Below, one piece after another: positions 431 through 61,654 of a stretch of DNA of 64,000 bases. Position 1 is the first letter of the stretch; each line of letters begins with the position of its first letter. The notes below the pieces were generated by a model. The model was not told the DNA's origin. It searched no databases and worked only from the letters and a program-made list of their open reading frames with translations. The position numbers and the translations under genes are program-made. The DNA comes from Patescibacteria group bacterium (lineage in GTDB: Bacteria > Patescibacteriota > Saccharimonadia > Saccharimonadales > JAZKJC01): contig JAZKJC010000005.1 of NCBI GenBank assembly GCA_040384565.1, positions 12,796 through 76,795 of the forward strand, written 5' to 3'.

Positions 431-595
431 TATACCCATGTGAAATTGCTTTTCGGTTTTTAGGGTCGATGCTTTGCGAGTAAGAAAGTTTTGAGATTTT
501 ATCAGCATACCCTTGCGGTACGGTTATCAAATTTCGGAGACTTCTGGCCGGAAAGGGCGAGCCTAAAGGCCGGAAAGTAATTTCTCGTGGGTATA
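431..595 (+). repeat. Family-A long imperfect palindrome, copy A1 (MITE-like or structured-RNA element)
   Basis: Termini are TATACCCATG...CGTGGGTATA. The 26-nt outer arms pair with 22 Watson-Crick pairs, 3 G:U and 1 mismatch (hand count). It shares internal blocks with A2-A4: cttttcggtttttagggt, attttatcagc, tacggttat, aaatttcgg. Confidence 0.8.
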
Positions 596-25435: not shown

Positions 25436-25582
25436 CATCGCTTGTCAGTTTATAATGGTAATGGTTACTGACTGCCTATGTTAAAGATAAAAATCAAGAA
25501 GCAATCTACTGGTTTGGCGCATTTCGCCCGAAAATCTGCGTTCCAATTCTCACGTGCTGGTCATGTACGCTCCGATTCGGTA

Positions 25583-25616
25583 CCCCGCCTGTCTTTCCGA
25601 CAGGACGGACAGGTCG
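25583..25616 (+). repeat. 34-nt conserved hairpin motif, copy 1
   Basis: ccccgcctgtctttccgacaggacggacaggtcg matches 26529-26562 at 33 of 34 positions. The core ccgcctgtc/gacagg-a-cgg folds as a 9-bp stem with one bulge. Confidence 0.7.
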
Positions 25617-25648
25617 ATTTTCGGACAAACTACATCCAAACCAGTAAA

Positions 25649-26482
25649 TTGCGAGAGTATATTTCATGGCAACGGCTATTTGCCTCTGCCACGCTATGCC
25701 TGCTAATTATTCTAAGTGCGGCACAGTCATTAAGCGCCCAGAATGTTACGTCTGGTTACGATTCAGATCAGCCTATTCAGCGAGGCATGATTGTACGTCT
25801 CAAAAAGGATGATGCAACCAAAGTTGAACCGGTTAACAAGGAGAACGCGGAACATATTCATGGCGTAGTAGTAAGTGCCAACGATGCCCCTTTGTCAATT
25901 GCAGTTGATGGTCAAAAAGTGTTTGTATCCAAAACCGGACGCTATGATGTGCTTGTTAGCTCTCAAAACGGTGCTATCAGCCAAGGTGATTACATCGCCG
26001 TATCAGCCTTTGCGGGAATAGGCATGAGAGCTGGCGACACTGAGCCCTACATCATAGGTCGGGCACTGGCGAACTTTAATGACAGTACGGATGTAGTCAG
26101 CACCAGCCAAGTCAAAGATAGTACTGGCGCAAACCGAGATATTAAGATTGGCCGAATATCCCTAGACATTGGAGTTGCCAAAAACCCCTTACTCAAAGGC
26201 TCCAAGGCAGACTTGCCGGAATTTTTACAAAAAGCTGCGACTACAGTTGCCGGCAAACCAGTAAATGCTGTTCGCGTTTATATAGGGATTTTGATTTTGG
26301 CAATAACCACGGTAGTAGCGGGTAGCCTTCTTTATGGAGGGGTGCGTAGCGCCCTAATTTCGATTGGGCGTAACCCGCTTAGTAGGAAATCAATTATACG
26401 AAGCATGTTCCAGGTTATTATTACTGGTTTAATTGTTTTCATTACCGGTGTTTTTGGAGTATATTTAATATTGAGATTATGA
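25649..26482 (+). CDS. secreted-domain protein with C-terminal ATP-synthase c-subunit-like TM hairpin (no carboxylate)
   Basis: Listed ORF 25478..26482. TTG 25649 gives a proper signal peptide (REYISWQRLFASATLCLLIILSAAQSLSA). The C-terminus GSLLYGGVRSALISIGRNPLSRKSIIRSMFQVIITGLIVFITGVFGVYLILRL resembles the c-subunit helix-RQP loop-helix. The gene sits directly upstream of atpF. Confidence 0.55.
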   Translation: MREYISWQRLFASATLCLLIILSAAQSLSAQNVTSGYDSDQPIQRGMIVRLKKDDATKVEPVNKENAEHIHGVVVSANDAPLSIAVDGQKVFVSKTGRYDVLVSSQNGAISQGDYIAVSAFAGIGMRAGDTEPYIIGRALANFNDSTDVVSTSQVKDSTGANRDIKIGRISLDIGVAKNPLLKGSKADLPEFLQKAATTVAGKPVNAVRVYIGILILAITTVVAGSLLYGGVRSALISIGRNPLSRKSIIRSMFQVIITGLIVFITGVFGVYLILRL

Positions 26483-26488
26483 GGACTT

Positions 26489-26626
26489 ATGTACTTGGCA
26501 CATTTTGATTCAAAAGCTGCGCTTCGCACCCCGCCTGTCTTTCTGACAGGACGGACAGGTCGCCGTACCTTAGAGTACGGCTCCCTTGTGATGCTCTCTT
26601 TTGAGCCAAACTGCGCTCAAGTACAT
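26489..26626 (+). promoter_or_regulatory. 138-nt structured leader upstream of atpF
   Basis: The closing helix atgtacttg/caagtacat is 9 bp and perfect. It encloses ttttga-n-tcaaaa, conserved hairpin copy 2, and the ccgtac/gtacgg hairpin. It ends 32 nt before the atpF ATG. Confidence 0.45.
26529..26562 (+). repeat. 34-nt conserved hairpin motif, copy 2
   Basis: ccccgcctgtctttctgacaggacggacaggtcg differs by one nucleotide from copy 1. Confidence 0.7.
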
Positions 26627-26658
26627 AGGTCCTAAAGTTAACTGGGGTGGGCGCATAA

Positions 26659-29353: not shown

Positions 29354-29418
29354 AGCTTACAGCTTACAGCTTACAGCTTACAGAGAAGAACTGTCTACCG
29401 TCTACTGTTTACTGTATG
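29354..29418. repeat. tandem heptamer arrays (AGCTTAC x4 perfect, then CYGTNTA x4)
   Basis: agcttac x4 at 29354-29381, followed by ctgtcta ccgtcta ctgttta ctgtatg at 29391-29418. Both lie in the atpA-atpG spacer. Confidence 0.85.
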
Positions 29419-29440
29419 CTTGCAGATCGGAGATCTGCCT

Positions 29441-30361: not shown

Positions 30362-31739
<1,378 letters not shown>

Positions 31740-31745
31740 CGAGAT

Positions 31746-31777
31746 ACGTAGAACGTATAACGTATAACGTAGTACGG
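31746..31777 (+). repeat. heptamer array ACGTAKA x4.5, 5' arm of an outer hairpin enclosing A2
   Basis: acgtaga acgtata acgtata acgtagt acgg. The segment cgtataacgtagtacgg pairs with cctactacgttatacg at 31958-31973. Confidence 0.75.
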
Positions 31778-31794
31778 TTGAAACCAAGCCGTTA

Positions 31795-31957
31795 TATACC
31801 CATGATAAGCCACTTTTCGGTTTTTAGGGTTAAAGTTTTATGAGTCAGAAGTTTTTGAAATTTTATCAGCGTACCGGTAGTACGGTTATTAAATTTCGGG
31901 AAGTTCTGGCTATAAAAGGCGAGTCTAAGAGCCGGAAAGTGGTTTATCATGGGTATA
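31795..31957 (+). repeat. Family-A long imperfect palindrome, copy A2
   Basis: TATACCCATGATAAGCCACTTTTCGG...CCGGAAAGTGGTTTATCATGGGTATA. The outer arms pair with 24 Watson-Crick pairs and 2 G:U (hand count). It lies between atpD and atpC. Confidence 0.85.
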
Positions 31958-31983
31958 CCTACTACGTTATACGTACTACGACC
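31958..31983 (+). repeat. 3' arm of the outer heptamer hairpin flanking A2
   Basis: cctactacgttatacgtactacgacc is complementary to the 31761-31777 array units. Confidence 0.7.
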
Positions 31984-33470: not shown

Positions 33471-33639
33471 TTAATAGACTCCTTCCGGAATAAAAACCCC
33501 GATGAAAAAACGAGGATTTTTGTTCCAAAGTTTTCAATAATTCGTAAAGCGTATCTGGATACGGTTTACGAATTTTGGGAAGTTTGGGGTAAAAAGGACG
33601 TTTTTTGGCGGGGGAGTTATTCCGGAAGGAGTCTAATAT
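33471..33639 (+). repeat. Family-B long imperfect palindrome, copy B1
   Basis: The perfect 19-bp termini are tagactccttccggaataa / ttattccggaaggagtcta. The interior pairs with several U:G wobbles on the plus strand. Mirror-image ORFs on both strands are an artefact of the palindrome. Confidence 0.8.
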
Positions 33640-40416: not shown

Positions 40417-41397
40417 ATGATACGTCGTAAATTATCAATTTTGTTATGTCTAGCAATTCTTGGCGTTGGTTTGTTGTGGGTGCCAGTAAGGGCCCAACAG
40501 GAAACAGGTGGCAGTGGTTTGCAAATATCACCTACAAAAACTGATATAAGCATTGTTGCTGGCGATCAGCGTGATTTCACTATCGCCGTTAAAAACGTTA
40601 CTCAAGGTGACTTGACGGTAAAGACTTTTATAAATGATTTTGAATCAGATAACATTACCGGCAATCCAAGATTGCTGGCTGACACAACAAAAAGAACGGC
40701 TTATTCACTGGCTGAAATAATAAAAGGGCTCAACGACTTTGAATTAAAAGCCCAAGAGAGCAAAGAAATAAAACTTACTGCTATCGTCCCGGCTAATGCT
40801 TCACCTGGAGCATATTTTAGTGCTGTGCGTTTTACGGCTATTCCTAAAAATCAGGCTTCTGAAGCAACGCAAGATGGCGGACAAGTTGCTCTGACGGCAA
40901 GTCTCGCTCATCTGGTTCTTATTGAAATTCCCGGTGAAATAAATGAACAGATTCAGCTAGAAAGCCTTAAATTCCAAAGTAGTGGCAAGGGTGGATCATT
41001 TTTCTTAAGTAGTCCCGATAAAGCAAACCTAGCTATTAAGAACCTTGGAAACGGTTTCTCGCGTCCATTCGGTAAGGTAACTATCAGTAGATTTGGCAAA
41101 GAGGTGTTTGCGTATGATGTTAACAACACCGATCCAAAAGCTATTGTTCTGCCCAAATCCAGCCGTACGCTCATTAATGACGTAAAGAATATAAAATCTC
41201 CCGGTAAATATACGGCGGTTGCATCAGTTGCTTACGGTAATGGAGCAGAAGTTATTAACCAGGAAGTTTCATTCTGGTATGTACCAGCCTGGTTGATAGC
41301 TTTGATACTGGCAATAATTCTAGCAGTGGTAATTGGTTCGTATCTGATGTATCGCAAGCGTTTTGGCAAGCGTCAGGCTAAAAAGAATCGTCGGTAA
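40417..41397 (+). CDS. two-domain surface protein with C-terminal TM anchor (CscA/DUF916-DUF3324-like, chaperone-like strand pattern)
   Basis: GGAGG RBS and a signal peptide. Blocks LQISPTKTDISIVAGDQRDFTIAVKNVT...TFINDF, PGAYFSAVRF and SPGKYTAVASV. The C-terminal TM helix is followed by YRKRFGKRQAKKNRR. Confidence 0.6.
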   Translation: MIRRKLSILLCLAILGVGLLWVPVRAQQETGGSGLQISPTKTDISIVAGDQRDFTIAVKNVTQGDLTVKTFINDFESDNITGNPRLLADTTKRTAYSLAEIIKGLNDFELKAQESKEIKLTAIVPANASPGAYFSAVRFTAIPKNQASEATQDGGQVALTASLAHLVLIEIPGEINEQIQLESLKFQSSGKGGSFFLSSPDKANLAIKNLGNGFSRPFGKVTISRFGKEVFAYDVNNTDPKAIVLPKSSRTLINDVKNIKSPGKYTAVASVAYGNGAEVINQEVSFWYVPAWLIALILAIILAVVIGSYLMYRKRFGKRQAKKNRR

Positions 41398-41404
41398 GCG
41401 TAGT

Positions 41405-41567
41405 CATACCCATGATAAACCACTTTCCGGCTCTTAGACTCGCCTTTTATAGCCAGAACTTCCCGAAATTTAATAACCGTACTACCGGTACGCTGATAAA
41501 ATTTCAAAAACTTCTGACTCATACAACATCAACCCTAAAAACCGAAAAGCAATTTATCATGGGTATA
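41405..41567 (-). repeat. Family-A long imperfect palindrome, copy A3 (inverted relative to A2)
   Basis: The reverse complement of 41406-41523 is identical to 31839-31956 (118 nt, hand alignment). The remaining arm differs but still pairs through five G:U wobbles on the minus strand. Confidence 0.85.
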
Positions 41568-41598: not shown

Positions 41599-42510
41599 AT
41601 GGGGATAGTAGGAACACCCATGAAACTAAAAAATCTAACTTTGGTAGTAATTACCCCATTAATTACAGTTTTGCTTGCCATCATTTTTGTAAGTATTAGT
41701 TCGAGTGTCTACGCGGCCCAAGATTCGGGATCAATTGGTATAGAAGGCCGTATTTCGGCGCCTCCACCTACTCAAGGCGCTACAATTAGTTTGCCAAGAG
41801 ACGGACAGGCTTTTACCACTGTGCCAATTGACGTTAGCGGTATATGCCCGGTAGGGCTGCTCGTGAAGCTGTTCAAAAATAACATTTTTTCAGGTTCACA
41901 GATGTGTACAAATGGTAGCTTTTCTATAAAGGTTGATCTATTTACTGGTACCAACGAGCTTGTGGCACGCGTCTATGATGCCCTAGATCAACCAGGGCCG
42001 GACTCTAACAAAGTTACAGTGAGTTTTAATGATAATAAACAGGGCGCCGGTTCCCGCGTTTCGCTAACCAGTAACTTTGCCAAAAGAGGTGCTAATCCCG
42101 GGCAGACTCTAACTTGGCCAATAATTTTATCCGGTGGCCAAGGCCCATACGCAATTAGTGTTGATTGGGGGGATGGCAAAGCGCCCGATCTTAAGAGTGT
42201 TGAAAATCCCGGTACGTTTAGTATTGAGCACATATACGATAGCCCGGGCGTATACAACATTATCATCAAGGCAACCGACAAGAACGGGGTAAGCGCTTTC
42301 TTGCAGCTTGTAGGTGTAGCCAACGGAGCCTTAAGCCAGGAAAATGGCACTAAAACTGACGGTGATAATGCCGGAGGGACAAGAACCCGTATAATTTGGC
42401 AGCCCGCGGCAATTTCTATCCCGTTCATCATATCGACGTTTTGGCTGGGCAAGCGCTACGAGCTTAAGATGCTGAAGAGGAAAATAGAACGCGGCGACAG
42501 ACCGTTCTAA
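41599..42510 (+). CDS. PKD-domain surface protein with C-terminal TM anchor
   Basis: Signal anchor and a PKD-like ISVDWGDGKAPD...HIYDSPGVYNIIIKATDKNG. The C-terminal TM helix is followed by a basic tail. An alternative start is ATG 41620. Confidence 0.6.
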   Translation: MGIVGTPMKLKNLTLVVITPLITVLLAIIFVSISSSVYAAQDSGSIGIEGRISAPPPTQGATISLPRDGQAFTTVPIDVSGICPVGLLVKLFKNNIFSGSQMCTNGSFSIKVDLFTGTNELVARVYDALDQPGPDSNKVTVSFNDNKQGAGSRVSLTSNFAKRGANPGQTLTWPIILSGGQGPYAISVDWGDGKAPDLKSVENPGTFSIEHIYDSPGVYNIIIKATDKNGVSAFLQLVGVANGALSQENGTKTDGDNAGGTRTRIIWQPAAISIPFIISTFWLGKRYELKMLKRKIERGDRPF

Positions 42511-42649: not shown

Positions 42650-43831
42650 ATGAAAACAGTGTATGTTGGGATGAGTGGTGGGGTGGATAGCTCTGTGACG
42701 GCGGCTTTGCTTAAAGAGCAGGGGTATACAGTTGTGGGCGTGTATATGAAAAACTGGAGCCAGGACTTGCCGGGCATGCCATGTACATGGAAAGAGGATT
42801 ATCAGGATGCTAAGCGGGTGGCCGTGCAGCTTGGTATTGACTTTAAGGTGTATGATTTTGAAAAGCAGTACCGGCATAAGGTTGTGAACTATATGCTTAA
42901 CGAGTACAAAGCTGGTCGTACCCCAAACCCTGACATAATGTGCAACCAGGAGATCAAATTCAAACTTTTTTTAGAAACCGCTCTCGAGGATGGCGCGGAC
43001 TTGATTGCCACCGGGCACTACGCCCGGATAGGACGAGCAATGAGCCATGAGCAACGAGCAAAGAACGAAAAGGGGGCTGATTCGTTGCTCACTGCTCACT
43101 GCTCACTGCTCACGGCAGCCAACAAAGAGAAAGACCAGACTTATTTTTTGTATAGGGTAACTAAAGAAGCGCTGTCAAAAAGTCTAATGCCTATAGGAGA
43201 ATTTGAGACTAAAAATGAAGTCAGACTGTTGGCTAAAAAAATGGGCCTGGCTACGGCGGATAAAAAAGACAGTCAGGGGATTTGCTTTGTCGGAAAGGTC
43301 GGTATCAAAGATTTCTTGCTGCATGAGCTGGGGCCTCAACCAGCTGGTGCCATTCTGAATCAGAACGGCCAAGAAATTGGCGAACACGACGGAGCGATAT
43401 TTTATACTATTGGTCAGCGACACGGTTTGGATGTTGGGGGCGGTTTGCCGTATTACGTGGTTGGAAAAGATATGTCAAAGAATCAAGTATTCGTCACGAC
43501 TGACTTGCAGGATGAAAAGCTCTGGCAGGACACCTTGAATCTTACGGATGTACACTGGATCAGTGGTGAGCCTTTAGCTCTGAGCAATGAGCAAAGAGCA
43601 ATCCATTCGACAAGCTCAGGACACGTGAGCAATGAGGGACTACAGGTTCGGACTCGTTATAGGGCTCCATTGGTGAGAGCTACGCTACAGGTGGTGACTT
43701 CTAGCGCCAAAAATAGCGAAACCACGCTACAGGTAGTGTTGTCTGATCAAGTCCGTGCCGTAACCCCGGGTCAGTCAGCAGTTATATATGCTGGCGAGCA
43801 GGTACTTGGCGGCGGCATAGTCTTATATTAA
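42650..43831 (+). CDS. mnmA: tRNA-specific 2-thiouridylase
   Basis: PP-loop GMSGGVDSS, plus TGHYAR, KDQTYFL, DSQGICF and TPGQSAV motifs. It contains two heptamer-repeat insertions (see repeats). Confidence 0.9.
   Translation: MKTVYVGMSGGVDSSVTAALLKEQGYTVVGVYMKNWSQDLPGMPCTWKEDYQDAKRVAVQLGIDFKVYDFEKQYRHKVVNYMLNEYKAGRTPNPDIMCNQEIKFKLFLETALEDGADLIATGHYARIGRAMSHEQRAKNEKGADSLLTAHCSLLTAANKEKDQTYFLYRVTKEALSKSLMPIGEFETKNEVRLLAKKMGLATADKKDSQGICFVGKVGIKDFLLHELGPQPAGAILNQNGQEIGEHDGAIFYTIGQRHGLDVGGGLPYYVVGKDMSKNQVFVTTDLQDEKLWQDTLNLTDVHWISGEPLALSNEQRAIHSTSSGHVSNEGLQVRTRYRAPLVRATLQVVTSSAKNSETTLQVVLSDQVRAVTPGQSAVIYAGEQVLGGGIVLY
43035..43113 (+). repeat. Family-C heptamer palindrome, copy C1, in-frame inside mnmA
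   Basis: Arm gagcaat gagccat gagcaac gagcaaa gaacgaa, loop aagggggctga, arm ttcgtt gctcact gctcact gctcact gctcac. It is translated as RAMSHEQRAKNEKGADSLLTAHCSLLTA. Confidence 0.75.
43582..43636 (+). repeat. Family-C heptamer array, copy C2 (direct units only), in-frame inside mnmA
   Basis: gagcaat gagcaaa gagcaat at 43582-43602, and gagcaatgag again at 43627-43636. It is translated as SNEQRAI...VSNEG. Confidence 0.6.
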
Positions 43832-49550: not shown

Positions 49551-49669
49551 TAACAGCTAAGAGTAATGAGCTAAGAGCAATGAGCAATGAGTTTTTGGTT
49601 GCAGTTGAAGCCAAATCACTGCTCACTGCTCACTGCCCACTGCTCACTTTGTCGGGAGAGAAGCTATGA
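49547..49669 (+). CDS. 40-codon mini-ORF formed by Family-C element C3, ATGA-coupled at both ends
   Basis: MITAKSNELRAMSNEFLVAVEAKSLLTAHCPLLTLSGEKL. Its ATG overlaps the ftsA TGA and its TGA overlaps the next gene's ATG. It uses the same heptamer reading phase as C1 in mnmA. Confidence 0.35.
   Translation: MITAKSNELRAMSNEFLVAVEAKSLLTAHCPLLTLSGEKL
49559..49648 (+). repeat. Family-C heptamer palindrome, copy C3
   Basis: Arm gagtaat gagctaa gagcaat gagcaat gag, loop of about 24 nt, arm tcactgc tcactgc tcactgc ccactgc tcact. Each unit pairs 6 of 7 with one A:C, which would be G:U on the minus strand. Confidence 0.8.
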
Positions 49670-51760: not shown

Positions 51761-52821
51761 AAAGATATGCAGTCGGTGCTTCAAGACGACGTTGGTCAAG
51801 AATTTGGCTAGGTCTTCTTATGATAACTTTGGTAGTAGCTGGGGCGACTGTTTTTATGGTTAGACGATCATATAACCAGAACTTACGTCCTATCAGCGCG
51901 TCGGAGCGAGCAGTAGTGGTTACAGTTAAACCTGGCTCTACGGTACAGGACATAGCCAAACAACTGCAGGAGCAAGGGATTATTCGTTCCTCATGGGCTT
52001 TTGAATGGTACGTGCGCATTAATGATCTGCGCGATCGCCTGCAAGCTGGCACATATTCGTTGCGTCCAAGCCAAAGCATACAAGATATAGCTAGTATTCT
52101 GACTCACGGTAAAGTAAATGTCAGCCAGGTAACAATATTCCCCGGCAAGAGAATTGATCAGGTAAGAGAATCTCTAATTAATGATGGTTTTTCGCCGGAG
52201 TCAGTTGACGCAGCCTTGGAGCCGGGCCAATACGCTGATAGTCCGGCACTATCCGATAAGCCCAAAAACGCAAACTTGGAAGGTTATTTATATCCGGAAA
52301 CATTCCAAAAAACGGCTGATACTAAACCAGAAACAATTATTAGGGCCTCATTAGACGAAATGCACACATACCTGTCACCAGAAATTCGAGCGGGCATAGC
52401 CAGGCAAGGTTTGACAGTGCATCAGGGGGTGATCTTGGCCTCTATAATTGAACGAGAGGTTGGCAATCCTGTGGACAGGCCAAAGGTGGCACAAATTTTT
52501 CTAAAAAGAATTAAATCTGACATAGCCTTAGAATCAGATGCGACGGCTGGCTATGGTGCCATACTGGCAGGGGCAGAGCCCAGTATTTTCTATGAATCTG
52601 CTTACAATACCTATAAAAACAAAAATCTTCCACCCGGCCCTATTAGCAATGTTACCAAAACAAGTCTAGAGGCAGTCGCAAACCCAGCTATGACCGATTT
52701 TCTGTACTTTGTATCTGGGGATGATAATGAAAACGGTGTATCAATAACGTATTTTTCTAAAACGTTGCCAGAACATGAAGCGAATGTCTCGGCACATTGC
52801 CGTAAAAAATGCGGACGATAG
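51757..52821 (+). CDS. mltG: endolytic murein transglycosylase MltG (YceG-like)
   Basis: N-terminal TM helix. EGYLYPETF, ASIIEREV and YNTYKNKNLPPGPISN motifs. Confidence 0.85.
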   Translation: MKRYAVGASRRRWSRIWLGLLMITLVVAGATVFMVRRSYNQNLRPISASERAVVVTVKPGSTVQDIAKQLQEQGIIRSSWAFEWYVRINDLRDRLQAGTYSLRPSQSIQDIASILTHGKVNVSQVTIFPGKRIDQVRESLINDGFSPESVDAALEPGQYADSPALSDKPKNANLEGYLYPETFQKTADTKPETIIRASLDEMHTYLSPEIRAGIARQGLTVHQGVILASIIEREVGNPVDRPKVAQIFLKRIKSDIALESDATAGYGAILAGAEPSIFYESAYNTYKNKNLPPGPISNVTKTSLEAVANPAMTDFLYFVSGDDNENGVSITYFSKTLPEHEANVSAHCRKKCGR

Positions 52822-52824
52822 TAA

Positions 52825-52985
52825 TAGACTTCTTCTAAAACCCCACCTTACCAATACCAATTTTCAGGGCAATCCGTTAGTTTTCTGTCTCAAATAGTAG
52901 CCACGGCTACAATTTGAGCCATAAAACCACCAGCTTACTCCTGAAAATAGCTATTGCCAACAGATGGGGTTTTAGAAGAAGTCTA
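52825..52985. repeat. Family-B long imperfect palindrome, copy B2
   Basis: The termini tagacttcttctaaaacccca / tggggttttagaagaagtcta form a 21-bp perfect pairing. The apex is ctcaaatagtagcc-acg-ggctacaatttgag. It starts 4 nt after the mltG stop. Confidence 0.8.
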
Positions 52986-52998
52986 ATATTTTTTACAG

Positions 52999-54516: not shown

Positions 54517-55788
54517 ATGTTTGTTGATGTTGCGGTAGTTAAAGTTAAGGCAGGTGATGGCGGCAATGGGGTTGTCAGTTTTCGGCATGAGAAATTTATT
54601 GACCGTGGTGGGCCGGATGGTGGGGACGGTGGTAAAGGTGGCGACGTCATACTTATGGCCAGCCGCAATCAAAACACCCTTGCCAACTTTAGATTCCAGA
54701 GGGAGCTAAAGGCAACCGAAGGCCAAGCAGGTTCCAAAAGGCGCAAGCATGGCCGTAATGGTATTGATTTAGTTGTACCAGTTCCACTCGGAACGAGTGT
54801 CTTGGGCGTGGACGGCAATGTACTGGCAGATTTAACAATAGAAGACCAGCCGTTGATACTTGCCAAAGGCGGTAAGGGCGGTTTTGGCAATGCTCACTTT
54901 GTTAGCAGCACCCGTCAAGCTCCACGGGTAGCAGAAAAAGGCGAACAAGGTGATGAATTAACTGTAACACTAGAACTTAAGATGATCGCGGATGTTGGCC
55001 TGATTGGTCTGCCAAACGCCGGCAAGTCCACCTTGCTCAGCGTTGTCAGCAATGCCCACCCGGAAATAGCTGATTACCCATTTACCACTCTGACTCCAAA
55101 TCTGGGAGTTGTGGATATTGACAAAAAATCTTCGCTGCTGATAGCCGATATTCCGGGTCTTATAGAGGGTGCCAGTAGTGGCAAAGGTCTAGGGGATGAA
55201 TTTTTGCGTCATGTTGAACGTACTCGGGTACTTTTGCATTTGATTGATATATACCAAGATAATATCGCCACTGCCTACAAGACCATACAGGGCGAACTAG
55301 CTGCCTATAAAACAGATTTAGCAGGCAGGCCTCAAATAGTTGTTCTAACCAAAGCTGACGGTCTAGACGAGGAAATTATCGCAGATCGATTAGCGGAACT
55401 AAAAAAGCTAGTACCAAAAAACACACCACTTTTTGCGATATCCGCTCATAGTAAAGCTGGCTTAAAAGAACTTTTGTTCGCCCTTCAAAAAATTGTTGCA
55501 ACAGATCAGAAACAAGTTGCCAAGAAAACTAAAGAAAAAATCCCAGTCTTGACCCTCGGAACCGATGACGCCTGGAAAGTTAAAAAGATAGGCCCTGGGT
55601 TTACGATTACAGGTAAAAAAATTGAACGCTTCGCGGCTAGAACTGACTTTAGCAGCTTTCATGGTCAGCAGCGCCTGCGAGATATTATGCGCAAAATGGG
55701 CATCATGCACGAACTACGCCGTCAGCAAATTGAGCCAGGTTCTAAAATCACAATAGGTAGTCCCTCTCTGGGCTCTATTGAATATTAG
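54517..55788 (+). CDS. obg: GTPase Obg
   Basis: Gly-rich Obg fold (GGDGGKGG). G1 GLPNAGKST, G3 DIPG and G4 TKAD motifs. Confidence 0.9.
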   Translation: MFVDVAVVKVKAGDGGNGVVSFRHEKFIDRGGPDGGDGGKGGDVILMASRNQNTLANFRFQRELKATEGQAGSKRRKHGRNGIDLVVPVPLGTSVLGVDGNVLADLTIEDQPLILAKGGKGGFGNAHFVSSTRQAPRVAEKGEQGDELTVTLELKMIADVGLIGLPNAGKSTLLSVVSNAHPEIADYPFTTLTPNLGVVDIDKKSSLLIADIPGLIEGASSGKGLGDEFLRHVERTRVLLHLIDIYQDNIATAYKTIQGELAAYKTDLAGRPQIVVLTKADGLDEEIIADRLAELKKLVPKNTPLFAISAHSKAGLKELLFALQKIVATDQKQVAKKTKEKIPVLTLGTDDAWKVKKIGPGFTITGKKIERFAARTDFSSFHGQQRLRDIMRKMGIMHELRRQQIEPGSKITIGSPSLGSIEY

Positions 55789-55946
55789 TATACCTTAGCA
55801 GAAATTGGTTTTCGGGGTTGATGATTTCCTGGTCAGAAGTTTCTGAAATTTTATCAGCATATCCTTTGGTATGGTTATCAAATTTCGGGAAGTTCTGGCT
55901 GGAAAGGACAAGTCAAAAAGTCGGAAAGTAGTTTCTGTTGGGTATA
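55789..55946 (+). repeat. Family-A long imperfect palindrome, copy A4
   Basis: It starts at the base after the obg TAG. The termini are tataccttagcagaaattgg... / ...tagtttctgttgggtata. It shares the internal blocks attttatcagcata and ggttatcaaatttcgggaagttctgg. Confidence 0.8.
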
Positions 55947-57475: not shown

Positions 57476-59971
57476 TTAGAGGTCTTTTAGGAGTTTCTGG
57501 AGGTCGTTTACTTGCTGAGGGATAGATTTTCTATCGTCTAGCAGGACTGGTTTGCCGAATTTTATAGTGACTTTGCCGGATCTTGGGAACTGGATGGCAT
57601 CACCTGCCATGATGTTTTCAAAGCCGCTGTGTTTGATAGGGATTATCGGGACTTTCATTTCATTTACAATCCAGCCTATGCCGCTACGAAATGGCTGTAA
57701 CTCCCCGCTTGGGGAATGTTCACCTTCAGGGAAAAATAGAATATGCCATTTTTTATCCAGCAGTTCGCCAGTATAGGCCAAGCTATTCTTAAAACCAGTA
57801 TTTTTTGGGAAAGGGTATGCATTTACCATCACACTGGCGTAGGCATAATAAAAATTCAGCTGCAAGCGGCGCAAAAATTTGTTCTGGGAAAAACTCTGGC
57901 CTTCATTTTCAAAATATTCTTTCCAGGCGGCCGGGGCAATTCTTTGCCTTATACTCCACGGCAGCGACATAATGATGGCCGGGGCGTCAAAGTAACCTAC
58001 GTGGTTAGCAATAAATATAACCGGACCATTCAGATTCTTCAGGTTTTCACGGCCTATTACGCGGCGGCGTACAAACACCCGCAATAAATTATCGGCTAGT
58101 ATGAGGTTAAAGCCACCTCTTATGATGCGTAGAGGCGATGATAGCAACCAACGCCTAAAAATATTGGATTCATGCACCTTAGCCCGTTTTTTGACTATAT
58201 CTTCCAACTCTTTGACGGTGGTTGTGGCGTTGATATCATCTTCTTTGATATCAATGTTGAACTCTTGCTCAATAAACGCCACCAACTCAATGCGGTTCAC
58301 GGATGTAAGATGCAAATCTAAGGCCAATGTAGATGTTGGCTTAACTTCGCTTACGTCAACATCGCAGACTCTGGCAATCAAGCTGTGGAGTTTAGACGCG
58401 CTATCAGCCGGTGGTGGCGTGGATAATTTGGCTTGATTGCCGGTAACTTCTGCCAGTACCAGCGGTTTTTTAATTTTCATGGTTGTTGTGCGTGGAAAAT
58501 CTTCTTTAGCCCATTTTCCATAAGAAGTTATGCGCTGGCTTTCGTTCAGATCCAGGTTGGCAGCAGTTACTACCTTTTTAATATCTAGCTTTGGATCTAG
58601 TGGCAATATTTCGGCGTGGACTTGTTCTCCCTGACTGCTCGGCAAGCCAACTACGCAAACATCGCGTACGCCTTTCTGGCGCATTAGGGCAGTTTCAACA
58701 TCTTCCGGATAAACGTTCATGCCGGCAGCCGTTACTATTACGTCTTTTTTCCGGCCCTTTAAGAATAAGTAGCCATTATTATCTAGGTTACCTATATCAC
58801 CAGTGTTCATCCAGCCTTGTTCGAACAGTTCTTTGGTCTGTTGAGGCTTCTGGAAATAACCCTGGGTGATATTTGTGCCTTTTGCCAGCACTTCACCCAC
58901 TTTATTCAGGCTAAGCTTGACACCAGGAATTGGTTTGCCAACCGACCCAACAACCGATGTTTCGAGGGGGTTTACGGTTAGAACGGGGGAGCATTCAGTC
59001 AGCCCATAGCCTTGTACGATCCTAAACCCCAAACCAAACCAAAACTTTTGTAAATCATCACTTAAGGGCGCGCCACCGCAGATGAAATAACCAAAATGTT
59101 TACCAAATTTTTTATGAACTGGCTTAAATAAAACTTTTTTGAGGCTTCTTGGCGCATTGAGATTAAGGATTTTTTCAAAGGTATGAGTTTTGCCTTTAGC
59201 CTCAACTTCGCGGCGAATGCTGGTTTCAAAAAGTTTTAATAGTCTAGGAACCAACACAATATTGGTAATGCGTTCCTCGGCCAGAACCTTAAATATAAGG
59301 TTAGGCCGTAGCCCCCTCATATACACGACTGTGCAGCCAGCACTCAGCGGTGCTAAAAAGCCTGGGTTTTGTTCAAACAAGTGGCTCATGGGCAGTACTG
59401 ACAAAAATGTCTGGGATGGGCTGACATCAACCACTTTTTTAATGGCTACAACATTACTTATCAGGTTGCCGTGTGTAATGATAACGCCCTTTGGATCACC
59501 GGTGGTGCCGGACGTATAGACGATTTCTAATATATCAGCGGGATTAACAAGAGCGCGTTTTTTGTAAACATCAAGATCCTGAATGTAATGGTTAAGGTGC
59601 TCAATGACAAGATCCTTAACGCCAAGCTTCGGTAAAAGCTTGAATTCGGAATGGAAAATCAGCTTTGCTTTGATCTGCTGCTGAATTTTGCCCACAAAAT
59701 CTCCTGTTGCCAAAAAATCTATGGGAACTACAATAACTCCCTTTAGTGCTGCTGCTAAAAATACCGTTCCCCACTGAGGGCTGTTGTAGCCCCAAATGAT
59801 CAGTTTGTCGCCTTTGCTTAGCCCAGCATTTTCTAAAAGTGTCGCAGTTCGCAGAATATCTTGATGAAACTCCCGGTAGCTATGTTTAAATGTGCGGTAG
59901 CCTGTCTTTTGGACAACTGCTGTTTTGTCCCACTCCTCAAAACTTTTTATGAGGTCAACAACTGTTTTCAT
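57476..59971 (-). CDS. tri-domain acyl-AMP/CoA ligase - carrier protein - lysophospholipid (PlsC-type) acyltransferase fusion
   Basis: The adenylation domain has YTSGTTGDPKGV, GYGLTECSP, TGDIG and KIKK motifs. The carrier-like segment is LALDLHLTSVNRIELVAFIEQEF. The acyltransferase motifs are NHVGYFD (HxxxxD) and FFPEGEHS. Confidence 0.8.
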   Translation of the reverse strand: MKTVVDLIKSFEEWDKTAVVQKTGYRTFKHSYREFHQDILRTATLLENAGLSKGDKLIIWGYNSPQWGTVFLAAALKGVIVVPIDFLATGDFVGKIQQQIKAKLIFHSEFKLLPKLGVKDLVIEHLNHYIQDLDVYKKRALVNPADILEIVYTSGTTGDPKGVIITHGNLISNVVAIKKVVDVSPSQTFLSVLPMSHLFEQNPGFLAPLSAGCTVVYMRGLRPNLIFKVLAEERITNIVLVPRLLKLFETSIRREVEAKGKTHTFEKILNLNAPRSLKKVLFKPVHKKFGKHFGYFICGGAPLSDDLQKFWFGLGFRIVQGYGLTECSPVLTVNPLETSVVGSVGKPIPGVKLSLNKVGEVLAKGTNITQGYFQKPQQTKELFEQGWMNTGDIGNLDNNGYLFLKGRKKDVIVTAAGMNVYPEDVETALMRQKGVRDVCVVGLPSSQGEQVHAEILPLDPKLDIKKVVTAANLDLNESQRITSYGKWAKEDFPRTTTMKIKKPLVLAEVTGNQAKLSTPPPADSASKLHSLIARVCDVDVSEVKPTSTLALDLHLTSVNRIELVAFIEQEFNIDIKEDDINATTTVKELEDIVKKRAKVHESNIFRRWLLSSPLRIIRGGFNLILADNLLRVFVRRRVIGRENLKNLNGPVIFIANHVGYFDAPAIIMSLPWSIRQRIAPAAWKEYFENEGQSFSQNKFLRRLQLNFYYAYASVMVNAYPFPKNTGFKNSLAYTGELLDKKWHILFFPEGEHSPSGELQPFRSGIGWIVNEMKVPIIPIKHSGFENIMAGDAIQFPRSGKVTIKFGKPVLLDDRKSIPQQVNDLQKLLKDL

Positions 59972-60321
59972 ACCTCTAATATTACCATAGCAACCGCGTA
60001 ATTGTGATCGTGGCTAATGCTAACGTCGCATGATTTATACTTTTGCCACTGCGGCGTAACGACAATTTTGGGACGGCCAGATGGCTCATAAGCAATTTGA
60101 ATGTCATGTAGTTTAGGTACCATGCCGAGCGCCTTAAAAAACGCTTCCTTGGCTGCGAGCACTCCGGCTAGGTGCTCCATGCTTACACTAGTTCTTTGGG
60201 AAGTAATCTCCGGATTGGATAGCTCATCGGCATGGAATAACTTTTTTAGCATCAGCTCGTCTTTAAAAAGCTTAATCATATCAGGAATAAATACAATGTC
60301 TGTGCCACAGCGGATTGCCAT
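59968..60321 (-). CDS. acpS: holo-[acyl-carrier-protein] synthase (4'-phosphopantetheinyl transferase)
   Basis: 117 aa. N-terminal GTDIVFI and central EAFFKAL match the AcpS pattern. It has a 4-nt overlap with the downstream fusion gene. Confidence 0.8.
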   Translation of the reverse strand: MAIRCGTDIVFIPDMIKLFKDELMLKKLFHADELSNPEITSQRTSVSMEHLAGVLAAKEAFFKALGMVPKLHDIQIAYEPSGRPKIVVTPQWQKYKSCDVSISHDHNYAVAMVILEV

Positions 60322-60322
60322 A

Positions 60323-61006
60323 TTATTTCCGACCCTTTGATAATTTGCTTAGAATTTCCAAGACCTTTTTTTCAACTGTCTTATCAAAAACAATTTTATG
60401 ATGGCCATTTACCGGGATGATAATATTTTCAGCACCTTTCAGATAGCTTCCGGTTTCATGCCAAATGTGATTATCATACGCGGGAATAATTGAGTAAACA
60501 TGCTTATTAACATGCCCCTGATCATGAAGGTTCGTAATACTCGTGCTTCCGGATGTCATTTCCTTAAATGCTTTGTGAGGCACAATTCCGGCAAGTCTAG
60601 TACCACTAAAAGGCGTGGCGATAGCTATCACGGACTTAATACGTCCATCTTTATTGTAATGTGCAAGTAACTGTTTGCCGATCAAACCACCTTTGCTATG
60701 ACCAACTATAATAACGTTTCTTAAATCCTGTTCTACTATCAACCTGTGTACTAATTCAGCAGAAGTATCTACACTAAGTAAATTCCTACCCAGCCTTTTT
60801 GCTACATAAACCGGATGGCCGACCAACGAGATTTTATTGCCAAGTTGCTTTAAAAAGTGCCATTTTAGGCTGATGCCTGGCAGTAAGATCACGGGTATTT
60901 TATTTTCCTTTGTAAAGCCAAGGTAGTGTTTAGGTACGCTGCGTTTAAACGTCAGTCCTGCTTTTGCGCGGTAAGCATAGTCAACTACCCAATCTTTTAC
61001 AGCCAC
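60323..61006 (-). CDS. alpha/beta-fold hydrolase (lipase/esterase-like)
   Basis: Nucleophile elbow GHSKGG, 227 aa, and a C-terminal H in NGHHKIVF as a possible triad histidine. Confidence 0.7.
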   Translation of the reverse strand: MAVKDWVVDYAYRAKAGLTFKRSVPKHYLGFTKENKIPVILLPGISLKWHFLKQLGNKISLVGHPVYVAKRLGRNLLSVDTSAELVHRLIVEQDLRNVIIVGHSKGGLIGKQLLAHYNKDGRIKSVIAIATPFSGTRLAGIVPHKAFKEMTSGSTSITNLHDQGHVNKHVYSIIPAYDNHIWHETGSYLKGAENIIIPVNGHHKIVFDKTVEKKVLEILSKLSKGRK

Positions 61007-61009
61007 AAC

Positions 61010-61423
61010 CTAACTTCCTTTCATTGATTGTTTTATTCGTTTATAACGGTCGCGATTGCCCAGCAGAAATGTGATGCCAGTGAACACTGCGAACAAACCC
61101 AGGGATATCATCCAGAGTGCACTGTGACGTTGTAGCCAGAAAGCGCCCAGGAGAACTAGTGGTGGTGCGAGAATATCGTAAGCTAACTGAATCTTTGGGT
61201 TTTTGACAAAGATGTAATCACCTAGTTTATCCGCGTGCTTTTTCAGTAAGTCTATGTAACGTTTGGCCCAGGCGTGGTGAACAGCCAGTAACGTCAGACT
61301 CAGAATTAATAGCGGTATTCCACCCGGTCCGGGTAAAGGGCTGGTAAGCGCAGCCAGTATCATAAGTACAACAGCCAGCGCATCAAATATTATAACTTTC
61401 CAAAATCGCATAACACGTCGCAT
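61010..61423 (-). CDS. small PGPGW-type membrane protein
   Basis: 137 aa with about 4 TM helices and an SPLPGPGGIPLL motif. Confidence 0.55.
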   Translation of the reverse strand: MRRVMRFWKVIIFDALAVVLMILAALTSPLPGPGGIPLLILSLTLLAVHHAWAKRYIDLLKKHADKLGDYIFVKNPKIQLAYDILAPPLVLLGAFWLQRHSALWMISLGLFAVFTGITFLLGNRDRYKRIKQSMKGS

Positions 61424-61474
61424 GTAGATAAGTATACGGTACCAGGCAAACTACTGGCATTTTACTCTGTTTTT

Positions 61475-61483
61475 TGGTACAAT
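61475..61483 (+). promoter_or_regulatory. extended -10 box TGgTACAAT directing transcription into A5 and uvrA
   Basis: tggtacaat ends 1 nt before the left end of A5. The predicted start site falls in the A5 terminal repeat. Confidence 0.45.
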
Positions 61484-61484
61484 C

Positions 61485-61645
61485 CATTACCATGATAAAT
61501 TGCTTTTCGGGTTTTCAGGCTTGATGATTTTTGTCCCAGATCTTCCAGAATTTGCGGAGCATATCTGGATATGTGTAGCAAATTATGGAAGATCTGGGAC
61601 AAAAAGGGCAAGTCTGGAAAGCGAAAAGTAGTTTATTATGGGGAT
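61485..61645 (+). repeat. Family-A long imperfect palindrome, copy A5 (divergent interior)
   Basis: The termini cattaccatgataaattgcttttcg / cgaaaagtagtttattatggggat are conserved. The interior tttttgtcccagatcttccagaatttgc / gcaaattatggaagatctgggacaaaaa is unrelated to A1-A4 yet fully self-complementary. Confidence 0.75.
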
Positions 61646-61654
61646 CGCGTCAAC

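What the first reader, a model, noticed from the sequence alone, without database searches (positions are those of the whole stretch)
31795..31957. Family A: five ~160-nt long-hairpin elements with conserved termini, strand-specific G:U pairs and compensatory changes
The copies are at 431-595 (+), 31795-31957 (+), 41405-41567 (-), 55789-55946 (+) and 61485-61645 (+). All have termini TATACCCATGATAA...TTATCATGGGTATA, with small variations, and fold end-to-end into one imperfect hairpin. In the 26-nt outer arms I count 3, 2 and 5 G:U pairs (A1, A2, A3) on the element's sense strand. These would be A:C mismatches on the other strand. Arm sequences differ between copies with compensation, for example gccac/gtggt versus attgc/gtaat. 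A5 has a completely different interior that is still fully self-complementary. All copies are intergenic. A4 starts at the base after the obg stop, A2 sits between atpD and atpC, and A5 lies between a TGgTACAAT promoter and uvrA. TA dinucleotides flank or terminate most copies. The features fit either a MITE (TA-target, IS630/mariner-like ends) or a family of structured RNAs. The wobble bias favours selection at the RNA level. I do not recognise it as a named RNA family.
Basis: seen in the sequence. Interest (0 to 1): 0.7.

Follow-up and report, generated by a model that had tools for sequence, protein, structure and literature searches.

The report
Mobile long-hairpin repeats in a Saccharibacteria genome
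Five ~160-base repeats that each fold into one long hairpin are small mobile insertions (MITE-like) in a candidate-phyla-radiation bacterium; their pairing is preserved on one strand only, so a single-stranded form, probably RNA, is under constraint. This is a new example of a known kind of element.

Summary
Five family-A copies lie at the stated coordinates and no others are in the window. Each folds end to end into a hairpin of 64-71 pairs.

The fold is much stronger on one strand: -67 to -91 kcal/mol with 6-14 G:U pairs, against -25 to -63 with 0-2 G:U on the other. Across nine related elements I count 87 G:U against 6 A:C. Among variants seen in individual copies, 25 Watson-Crick pairs became G:U and 4 became A:C, and 11 pairs show full compensatory changes.

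The elements are insertions. In related Patescibacteria/Saccharibacteria genomes the same gene junctions are empty: atpD|atpC is 1-35 nt against 260 nt here, and obg|sbcB is 4-9 nt against 173 nt. About 136 kb of relatives holds no copy.

Two further copies exist in other metagenomic Saccharibacteria-type DNA. There is no Rfam match, no transposase in the window and no readable target duplication.

A second family (B, two copies) shares a ~90-nt core with family A, so the elements are modular.

Best reading: a non-autonomous, MITE-like palindromic element whose hairpin is kept on one strand, most likely as co-transcribed RNA; a single-stranded DNA intermediate is the main rival. This is a new member of a known kind and of moderate interest.

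The parts
431..595 (+). Family A copy A1 (165 nt), between a PIN-domain gene (106-408) and pyruvate kinase (805-2241)
   Evidence: nhmmer E=5.5e-48. RNA fold -79.3 kcal/mol with 11 G:U on this strand, against -46.0 with 2 G:U on the other. Pfam context. A short-read contig (L033) breaks inside it.
31795..31957 (+). Family A copy A2 (163 nt), the finding itself, between atpD and atpC
   Evidence: Exact termini. Fold -86.7 kcal/mol with 10 G:U, against -52.2 with 1 G:U. The orthologous atpD|atpC gap is 10, 1, 2 and 35 nt in L029-L032, against 260 nt here.
41405..41567 (-). Family A copy A3 (163 nt), 95% identical to A2, antisense to both flanking + genes (WxL-like 40417-41397, PKD 41599-42510)
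   Evidence: Inverted-repeat pair I1, 168 nt at 95%. Fold -80.9 kcal/mol with 14 G:U on the minus strand, against -40.4 with 1 G:U. The orthologous gap is 90 nt (L031) and 30 nt (L032), against 201 nt here.
55789..55946 (+). Family A copy A4 (158 nt, with a 6-nt deletion in the 5' arm), starting at the base after the obg stop and lying upstream of exonuclease I (55962)
   Evidence: nhmmer E=5.7e-42. Fold -66.6 kcal/mol with 12 G:U, against -25.4 with 0 G:U. The obg|sbcB gap is 6, 4 and 9 nt in L035-L037, against 173 nt here.
61485..61646 (+). Family A copy A5 (162 nt), the most diverged copy, filling the space between a promoter-like site and the uvrA start codon (61655)
   Evidence: nhmmer E=9.5e-38. 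Fold -91.3 kcal/mol with 6 G:U, against -62.8 with 0 G:U. Covariance-model hit on its core, 76 bits. Fully assembled in an independent short-read contig, L034.
61454..61483 (+). Promoter-like site CTGGCA-18-TACAAT with TG before the -10 hexamer, ending 2 nt before A5. This predicts that A5 is the 5' leader of the uvrA mRNA.
   Evidence: Consensus scan. This is a prediction only.
33472..33638 (+). Family B copy B1 (167 nt; termini TAATAGACTCC...GGAGTCTAATA). Its inner ~88 nt (33512-33599) is homologous to the family A core.
   Evidence: Inverted repeats I3 and I5. Fold -88.1 kcal/mol with 6 G:U, against -68.9 with 0 G:U. Core alignment to A5. Covariance-model hit of 85.7 bits. The orthologous gap is 104-134 nt in relatives, against 406 nt here.
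52822..52988 (-). Family B copy B2 (167 nt), with the same termini as B1 and an unrelated interior. Its G:U-rich, more stable strand is the window minus strand. It starts at the base after the YceG TAG stop.
   Evidence: Inverted repeat I7. Fold -87.8 kcal/mol with 5 G:U on the minus strand, against -67.9 with 1 G:U on the plus strand. B1/B2 alignment.
31747..31980 (.). Outer hairpin made of 7-nt repeats (ACGTAGA/ACGTATA x4 ... TACGTTA/TACGTAC) that encloses A2. A2 sits in its loop, so this is a nested insertion.
   Evidence: Inverted repeats I8 and I11. With A2 removed the flanks fold at -34.6 kcal/mol. The whole 260-nt block is absent from relatives.

Best explanation
Family A is a non-autonomous, MITE-like palindromic mobile element of a Patescibacteria (probably Saccharibacteria) lineage; family B is its relative.

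Copies have landed in very short gene spacers and have multiplied in this lineage only. Some sit directly after stop codons, one sits inside an operon junction and one sits in the loop of another hairpin.

The ends read TATA...TATA (family A) and TAATA...TAATA (family B). This fits a TA-rich target that is duplicated, but that step is inferred, not shown. No transposase is in the window, so mobilisation must be in trans, by an enzyme not identified here.

The whole 160 nt, not just the termini, is kept as a hairpin on one strand. That strand carries about 18% G:U pairs, single changes that keep pairing, and full compensatory changes. Something therefore acts on a single-stranded form of that strand.

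I think the most likely form is RNA. Copies inside operons (atpD|atpC, obg|sbcB) and in the predicted uvrA leader must be transcribed. Seven of nine elements lie sense to the neighbouring genes. So many G:U pairs are well tolerated in RNA and are poor in DNA.

The likely consequence, by analogy only, is a very stable intercistronic or 5'-terminal stem, acting as an exonuclease barrier or RNase III substrate as for Correia, ERIC and REP elements.

Shown here: repeat family, fold, strand asymmetry, covariation, insertion polymorphism, modular core. Inferred: TA target, RNA as the selected form, effect on mRNA.
For: - **Copies and fold:**
- **Strand asymmetry:** 87 G:U against 6 A:C over nine elements. 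On the 7-sequence alignment, 93.3% of cells pair on the sense strand against 79.0% on the antisense strand.
- **Changes in individual copies:** WC to G:U 25, WC to A:C 4 (binomial p=1e-4), WC to transversion mismatch 11, compensated WC to WC 11, G:U to WC 8. 25 of 40 single changes keep the pair, against 0.25-0.33 expected (p between 6e-7 and 1.5e-4).
- **Covariation:** 12 pairs have changes on both sides, against 6.0 +/- 1.8 in shuffles (1 of 500 reach it). 19 cells do so, against 7.5 (0 of 500). Slid structures pair only 36-55%.
- **Not a genomic strand bias:** elements have GC skew +0.22 to +0.39, while intergenic DNA outside them has -0.006. B2 has its G:U-rich strand on the opposite genomic strand.
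- **Empty sites:** the A2, A3, A4 and B1 junctions in relatives are too short to hold a copy (1-35, 30-90, 4-9 and 104-134 nt). The uvrA upstream spacer is only 58-106 nt there, though its gene neighbourhood differs.
- **No copy in relatives:** nhmmer and the covariance model find none in about 136 kb.
- **Independent copies elsewhere:** L019 (an uncultured Candidatus Saccharibacteria MAG) and L028.
- **Modularity:** the A5 core matches the B1 core.
- **Precedents:** MITEs fold into long RNA stem-loops, are co-transcribed and affect mRNA stability; ERIC-type elements have TA at both ends; bcr1 shows compensatory changes at the RNA level (PMC3184786). REPINs show compensatory changes in a long hairpin (PMC3116915).
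Against: - No target-site duplication could be read, because the intergenic DNA of the closest relatives (AtpD 94-95% identical) is too diverged to align base by base.
- No transposase, HUH enzyme or reverse transcriptase was found among 30 window ORFs scanned, and no longer element with the same ends occurs in the window.
- Only seven distinct family A sequences exist, two of them 95% identical. Many G:U pairs are shared by descent, so the raw 87:6 count overstates independence.
- Sense orientation relative to genes is confounded with replication direction, because nearly all genes in the window are on the + strand.
- A3 and B2 lie antisense to their neighbours, which an RNA-function model does not predict.
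- No transcript data are available.
Confidence: 0.6

Rival explanations
1. Single-stranded-DNA hairpin element. The copies are moved by an HUH or Y1-type enzyme (as for IS200/IS605 or REPIN/RAYT), or by another enzyme that handles one DNA strand exposed on the lagging-strand template. The strand asymmetry would then reflect G:T tolerance in that DNA hairpin rather than RNA.
For: With DNA energy parameters the sense strand is also more stable than its complement, for example -41.8 against -28.8 kcal/mol for A2. Seven of nine elements have their sense strand on the window + strand, which has positive cumulative GC skew and so would be the lagging-strand template. REPINs show compensatory changes along a long hairpin predicted in ssDNA or mRNA (PMC3116915). 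Insertion of A2 into the loop of another hairpin fits a structure-seeking mechanism.
Against: The REPIN architecture is not met: neither arm folds on its own better than shuffled sequence, so there are no REP units. No conserved GTAG or CGTC tag is present. No Y1/HUH domain was found in the window ORFs scanned. About 18% G:T pairs would make a weak DNA hairpin. B2 and A3 have the opposite genomic orientation.
Confidence: 0.22
2. Ordinary cut-and-paste MITE of a DDE transposon with a TA target (IS630/Tc1-mariner-like), with no selection on any single strand. The G:U excess and pairing would be inherited from founder copies, or renewed by conversion between the arms or between copies.
For: TA is at both ends of families A and B. 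Size, copy pattern and lineage-specific spread are typical of MITEs (PMC3184786). A2 differs from A3 by four adjacent transitions in one arm (GCCA against ATTG), which looks like one conversion event rather than four substitutions.
Against: A double-stranded mechanism gives no reason for 25:4 G:U over A:C among copy-specific variants, nor for compensatory changes along the full length beyond the termini. Arm-to-arm conversion would produce Watson-Crick pairs, not G:U. The same polarity appears independently in family B, with its different termini and, in B2, a different core. No matching transposon was found.
Confidence: 0.1
3. A family of free-standing structured small-RNA genes, each transcribed on its own, which happen to be multi-copy.
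For: Strand-specific fold with covariation and a conserved apical stem-loop, AGCRUAYC-loop-GRUAYGGUU, in all family A copies and in B1.
Against: No Rfam family matches at gathering scores, and only chance miRNA-like hairpin hits appear at relaxed thresholds. There is no consistent promoter-like site in or before the copies and no terminator-like T run after any of them. The copies sit at operon junctions that are 1-10 nt long in relatives. They are absent from close relatives, which is not expected for a conserved RNA gene.
Confidence: 0.05
4. Neutral by-product of strand-biased mutation (C to T and A to G on the exposed strand) acting on old palindromes.
For: Most copies have their sense strand on the strand with positive GC skew.
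Against: Intergenic DNA outside the elements shows no skew (GC skew -0.006, AT skew -0.019), while the elements show +0.22 to +0.39. B2 has the same polarity on the opposite genomic strand. Full compensatory changes, including G-C to C-G, are not produced by a transition bias.
Confidence: 0.03

Closest known systems
Correia / NEMIS elements of Neisseria (MITE)
   Same: Similar size (~104-157 bp against 158-165 nt). The ends begin and end with TA. They lie in intergenic spacers and at gene ends, are co-transcribed with neighbours and fold into long RNA hairpins. They are lineage-specific and have no known transposase (size and class from PMC3184786; the rest from my own knowledge of the Correia literature).
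   Different: There is no sequence similarity. In Correia elements the pairing is mainly the 26-bp terminal repeats, whereas here the whole length pairs, with ~18% G:U on one strand only. IHF sites, internal promoters and RNase III cleavage are documented for Correia and were not tested here.
ERIC / IRU elements of Enterobacteriaceae (MITE)
   Same: Imperfect palindromes of ~127 bp with TA at both termini. They are transcribed with neighbouring genes, and their effect on mRNA stability depends on the RNA fold (PMC3184786).
   Different: Different sequence and phylum. ERIC copies are largely fixed and orthologous among close relatives, whereas these copies are absent from relatives at 88-95% protein identity.
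bcr1 (Bacillus cereus group repeat, ~155 bp)
   Same: Almost the same size, mobile-element behaviour with a fixed short flanking repeat, transcribed, and with compensatory changes that keep an RNA structure (PMC3184786).
   Different: bcr1 folds into a two-stem cruciform-like shape with 5-bp TTTAT direct repeats. Family A is a single end-to-end hairpin and its target duplication is not established.
REPINs (REP doublets forming hairpins) with RAYT transposases
   Same: A long hairpin spanning the whole element, compensatory changes in the stem, intergenic location and within-genome populations (PMC3116915).
   Different: The arms contain no REP-type local palindromes, there is no GTAG/CGTC tag, and no RAYT was seen. 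REPINs are mostly known from Proteobacteria and number in the hundreds per genome.
Rickettsia palindromic elements (RPE)
   Same: Palindromic repeats of 105-146 bp in a reduced genome (PMC3184786). In this window the heptad-repeat hairpins, though not family A, occur in frame inside mnmA, as RPEs do in Rickettsia genes.
   Different: Family A and B copies are all intergenic, and there is no sequence similarity.

Membership tests
Bacterial MITE (non-autonomous DNA transposon) | Short (<~400 bp), multi-copy, no transposase ORF | tested here: met
   158-167 nt. Five family A and two family B copies lie in 64 kb. All six frames are short, or broken by stops in most copies.
Bacterial MITE (non-autonomous DNA transposon) | Terminal inverted repeats | tested here: met
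   TATACCCA...TGGGTATA is conserved in 6 of 7 family A sequences. Family B has (TAATA)GACTYCTTC...GAAGRAGTC(TAATA).
Bacterial MITE (non-autonomous DNA transposon) | Presence/absence polymorphism at orthologous sites | tested here: met
   The A2, A3, A4 and B1 junctions are empty in relatives, and no copy occurs in ~136 kb of relatives.
Bacterial MITE (non-autonomous DNA transposon) | Target-site duplication flanking each copy | tested here: inconclusive
   The ends are TA/TATA (A) and TAATA (B) on both sides. This could be a duplicated TA-rich target or part of the repeat. Empty sites in the closest relatives are too diverged to decide.
Bacterial MITE (non-autonomous DNA transposon) | Cognate autonomous element with the same ends | tested here: inconclusive
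   None in the window (Pfam on 30 ORFs).
IS630 / Tc1-mariner-derived MITE | TA duplicated on insertion; ends matching an IS630-family transposase's repeats | not testable with these tools
   This needs a near-identical empty site and the transposon. Only the terminal TA is seen.
REPIN / RAYT system | Two inverted REP units, each a short palindrome able to fold on its own | tested here: not met
   Each 75-nt arm folds no better than shuffled sequence with DNA parameters, for example A2 -1.3 and -4.3 kcal/mol against -3.5 and -3.9.
REPIN / RAYT system | Single-copy RAYT (Y1 transposase) gene flanked by the repeats | tested here: inconclusive
   No Y1_Tnp hit among the window ORFs scanned. The whole genome was not available.
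IS200/IS605-type PATE | Distinct subterminal hairpins at the left and right ends rather than a full-length palindrome | tested here: not met
   The element is one continuous hairpin and the arms have no local structure.
Any Rfam RNA family | Match at or above the family's gathering score | tested here: not met
   Zero matches in the window at gathering scores. Relaxed search gives only sub-threshold miRNA-precursor-like hits, best E=0.017 at 27 bits against a gathering score of 84.
Intrinsic terminator | G+C-rich stem followed by a T run | tested here: not met
   No terminator-like site at or after any copy.

The most novel reading that the evidence does not exclude
The ~90-nt core hairpin, with its conserved apical stem-loop (AGCRUAYC-loop-GRUAYGG), is the functional unit of a mobile element that propagates through a single-stranded intermediate (RNA or one DNA strand). 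The enzyme would be one not yet linked to such elements in candidate-phyla-radiation bacteria. The core is shared by families with unrelated termini and perhaps by the conserved hairpin upstream of the atp operon. On this reading the outer arms are acquired by nested insertion into other hairpins, as seen for A2, and the copies act as RNA modules inside operons of a reduced genome.
Probability: 0.15. Interest if true: 0.7.

Novelty: new member of a known kind. Interest (0 to 1): 0.4.

Why it matters
Small palindromic mobile repeats are well known in Neisseria, enterobacteria, Bacillus and Pseudomonas. I found no description of them in Saccharibacteria or Patescibacteria: no paper in the searched library holds both 'Saccharibacteria' and 'miniature inverted-repeat'.

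These genomes are very compact. The spacers hit here are 1-10 nt in relatives, so a 160-nt insertion between atpD and atpC, or directly after the obg stop, must be read through by RNA polymerase. That makes the clade a clean place to ask whether such elements are tolerated or used as RNA structures.

The one-strand wobble signature is unusually clear. It gives a direct test between RNA-level and single-stranded-DNA-level constraint once a full genome census is available.

Practically, the elements break short-read assemblies: L001 and L033 both end inside copies. They are therefore probably under-represented in MAG collections.

Tried and rejected
- **Rfam.** Nothing at gathering scores and only chance hairpin hits at relaxed scores.
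- **Phage and plasmid collections** (blastn, distant mode). No match.
- **Collection pattern scans for more copies.**
  - The 16-mer GGTTATYAAATTTCGG in viral contigs gave 16 single matches. An nhmmer screen of the loci gave only one marginal fragment among them (L003, E=0.12), so I treated them as chance.
  - AYGGTTATYAAATTTCGGRRA in 185,579 species genomes gave 5 loci, of which 1 is real (L019).
  - GGTTATYAAATTTCGGNNNNTTC in metagenome contigs gave 6 loci, of which 1 is real (L028).
  - The weak two-strand hits in two Bacteroidales loci (L018, L021) fold poorly and were dropped.
- **Six-frame peptide profile.** I searched a profile of the element's six reading frames against 5.8 billion proteins, hoping gene callers had translated other copies. 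Nothing scored E<=1.
- **Extending the window.** Encoding-contig look-ups returned only short-read contigs of the same organism, adding ~7 kb on the right with no new copy. The window's own UvrA was not on record.
- **REPIN architecture.** Rejected, because the arms have no local palindromes.
- **Mutation-bias explanation.** Rejected, because intergenic DNA has no skew and B2 has the opposite orientation.
- **Internal promoter or terminator function.** No consistent sites.
- **Base-accurate target-site reading from empty sites.** Failed, because the intergenic DNA of relatives is too diverged.

Full report
**What is there.** A profile built from them finds no further full copy in the window. 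Mean column identity is about 80-84%. A2 and A3 are 95% identical, and A5 is the most diverged. The 14-nt terminal motif is exact only in A2 and at one end of A3. What is conserved in six of the seven family A sequences is TATACCCA...TGGGTATA.

**The fold and its strand asymmetry.**
- Each copy folds end to end into one hairpin of 64-71 pairs.
- On the element's sense strand the RNA minimum free energies are -66.6 to -91.3 kcal/mol, with 6-14 G:U pairs. On the complementary strand they are -25.4 to -62.8, with 0-2 G:U.
- I aligned each 5' arm to the reverse complement of its 3' arm.
- Over nine elements (seven family A sequences and two family B) the totals are 541 Watson-Crick, 87 G:U, 6 A:C and 76 transversion mismatches.

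**Allowing for shared ancestry.** Many G:U pairs are shared by descent, so I also counted distinct variant states per pair against the majority state.
- Watson-Crick to G:U: 25
- Watson-Crick to A:C: 4 (p=1e-4 against 1:1)
- Watson-Crick to transversion mismatch: 11
- Compensated Watson-Crick to Watson-Crick: 11
- G:U to Watson-Crick: 8

So 25 of 40 single changes at Watson-Crick pairs keep the pair, against 0.25-0.33 expected without constraint.

**Covariation on the 7-sequence alignment.**
- 93.3% of cells pair on the sense strand, against 79.0% on the antisense strand.
- 12 pairs carry changes on both sides, against 6.0 +/- 1.8 in shuffles (1 of 500 shuffles reach this).
- Slid structures pair only 36-55%.
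- Examples include CAUGAU/AUCAUG (A2) against CACCAU/GUGGUG (L028), which contains a G-C to C-G flip.

**Not a mutational artefact of the chromosome strand.** The elements have GC skew +0.22 to +0.39 and AT skew about -0.1 on their sense strand. The 6 kb of intergenic DNA outside them has GC skew -0.006 and AT skew -0.019. Family B copy B2 shows the same polarity with its sense strand on the opposite genomic strand.

**The organism.** The window's AtpD and UvrA are 100% identical to proteins of an NCBI 'MAG: Patescibacteria group bacterium' on a 144-kb contig. Homologues at 84-85% identity carry 'Candidatus Saccharibacteria' names. Short-read Logan contigs from SRR26324625 are the same organism. 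Two of them end inside A1 and A4, and a third carries A5 intact. The repeats are therefore not an assembly artefact, and they do break short-read assemblies.

**They are insertions.** I fetched the orthologous regions of related genomes (AtpD 90-95% identical, UvrA 87-88% identical).

| Junction | Relatives | Window | Element |
|---|---|---|---|
| atpD to atpC | 10, 1, 2, 35 nt | 260 nt | A2 |
| WxL-like to PKD gene | 90, 30 nt | 201 nt | A3 |
| obg to exonuclease I | 6, 4, 9 nt | 173 nt | A4 |
| B1 spacer | 104-134 nt | 406 nt | B1 |
| upstream of uvrA | 58-106 nt | 231 nt | A5 |

For the uvrA row the gene neighbourhood differs in the relatives, so that comparison is weaker. Neither nhmmer nor a covariance model of the core finds any copy in about 136 kb of relatives. 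Those relatives have very few long close inverted repeats of any kind. The window has seven elements in 64 kb. This is the pattern of a lineage-specific burst of a mobile element.

**Copies elsewhere.** Pattern scans of 185,579 species genomes and of the metagenome collection each gave one genuine copy. One is in an uncultured Candidatus Saccharibacteria MAG (L019:3694-3857) and one in a short metagenome contig (L028:189-352). Both have the same termini and fold.

**What could not be established.**
- The intergenic DNA of even the closest relatives does not align base by base, so the target duplication cannot be read.
- The ends are compatible with a duplicated TA or TATA (family A) and TA or TAATA (family B), and equally with those bases belonging to the repeat.
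- No transposase, HUH enzyme or reverse transcriptase appears among 30 window ORFs scanned with Pfam.
- No longer element in the window shares the termini.

**Modularity.**
- A second family has termini TAATAGACTYC...GRAGTCTAATA: B1 at 33472-33638 and B2 at 52822-52988.
- B1's inner ~88 nt is homologous to the family A core and is closest to A5 (covariance-model hit of 85.7 bits). B2 has the same termini with an unrelated interior.
- All family A copies and B1 share an apical stem-loop, AGCRUAYC-loop-GRUAYGGUU.
- A2 itself sits in the loop of another hairpin made of 7-nt repeats, and the whole 260-nt block is missing from relatives.
- Nested insertion into hairpin loops would explain how one core acquires different outer arms. 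This is an inference.

**What it is not.**
- No Rfam family matches.
- There is no consistent promoter-like site in or before the copies, and no T run after them. A free-standing RNA gene or an intrinsic terminator is therefore unlikely.
- The only suggestive signal is a TG-extended -10 (TACAAT) ending 2 nt before A5, with the uvrA ATG 9 nt after it. This predicts that A5 forms the 5' leader of uvrA.
- The REPIN architecture is not met, because the arms contain no local palindromes.

**Mechanism.**
- The element is best described as a MITE-like, non-autonomous palindromic repeat. Correia/NEMIS, ERIC, bcr1 and REPINs are the nearest known kinds.
- The literature records long RNA stem-loops, TA-flanked ends, co-transcription, effects on mRNA stability and compensatory changes for those families (PMC3184786; PMC3116915).
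- What stands out here is that the whole length is kept paired on one strand, with about 18% G:U.
- I favour RNA as the constrained form. The operon-internal copies must be transcribed, seven of nine elements are sense to their neighbours, and that many G:T pairs make a weak DNA hairpin.
- A single-stranded-DNA intermediate remains a serious rival, because gene orientation and replication direction coincide in this window.
- The antisense copies A3 and B2 fit neither model neatly. A3 is a recent copy of an A2-like element.

**Verdict.** It is a new member of a known kind, apparently undescribed in this phylum within the searched library. Interest is moderate.

Noticed in passing
window 43035-43127, 43562-43591 and about 43690-43720, inside mnmA (42650-43831): The window's MnmA is 393 aa, against 342 aa in the L031 orthologue. 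It carries three in-frame insertions. The first (21 aa) is a hairpin built of 7-nt repeats (GAGCAAT-type x4 facing TGCTCAC x4). This is a palindromic repeat inside a coding sequence, reminiscent of Rickettsia RPEs.
   Followed up: partly
window 29354-29420, 30370-30420, 31747-31980 and 49562-49647; L038:275-360 and L038:1685-1698: Hairpins or arrays built from about four tandem 7-nt units, with different heptamers at different sites, occupy several intercistronic spacers. These are atpA|atpG, atpG|atpD, atpD|atpC, and the spacer between the ftsA-like gene and the next gene. A 95%-AtpD relative (L038) has a GAGCAAT/TGCTCAC-type hairpin between atpG and atpD, and its contig ends in heptamer-like sequence just after atpD. 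Origin and function are unknown.
   Followed up: partly
window 26483-26640; L029:4808-4935; L030:6172-6300: A third long hairpin (~125-150 nt) lies upstream of the atp operon. It is conserved at the orthologous position in the window and two relatives, degenerate in L032 and absent in L031. It is more stable on the minus strand in L029 and L030. Its apex (AGCCGUACUCUAAGGUACGGC) resembles the family A apex, and the covariance model gives a marginal hit (E=0.09).
   Followed up: partly
window 25582-25616 and 26528-26562: A 35-nt sequence, ACCCCGCCTGTCTTTC(C/T)GACAGGACGGACAGGTCG, occurs twice at 97% identity, 946 nt apart. One copy lies near the start of ORF 25478-26482. The other is inserted near the apex of the atp-upstream hairpin, and that insert is absent from the L029 and L030 versions.
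   Followed up: no
window 55786-55791 and 52819-52824: A4 and B2 both begin at the base immediately after a TAG stop codon (obg and yceG). This probably reflects the only tolerated landing sites in spacers that are 4-9 nt long (obg|sbcB) in relatives.
   Followed up: partly
L031:19592-19717: A relative carries an unrelated 126-nt palindromic element with perfect 25-nt terminal inverted repeats (TTCTAACAGATAGCACTCACTACTA), between a PKD-like gene and mnmA. Other lineages of this clade may therefore have their own small palindromic elements.
   Followed up: no
window 57476-61423 (minus strand): A block of four minus-strand genes lies between sbcB and uvrA: an AMP-binding/PP-binding/acyltransferase protein, a phosphopantetheinyl transferase, a hydrolase and a small membrane protein. 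Three relatives have an ExoD gene there instead. This is a lineage-specific rearrangement or acquisition next to A4 and A5.
   Followed up: no
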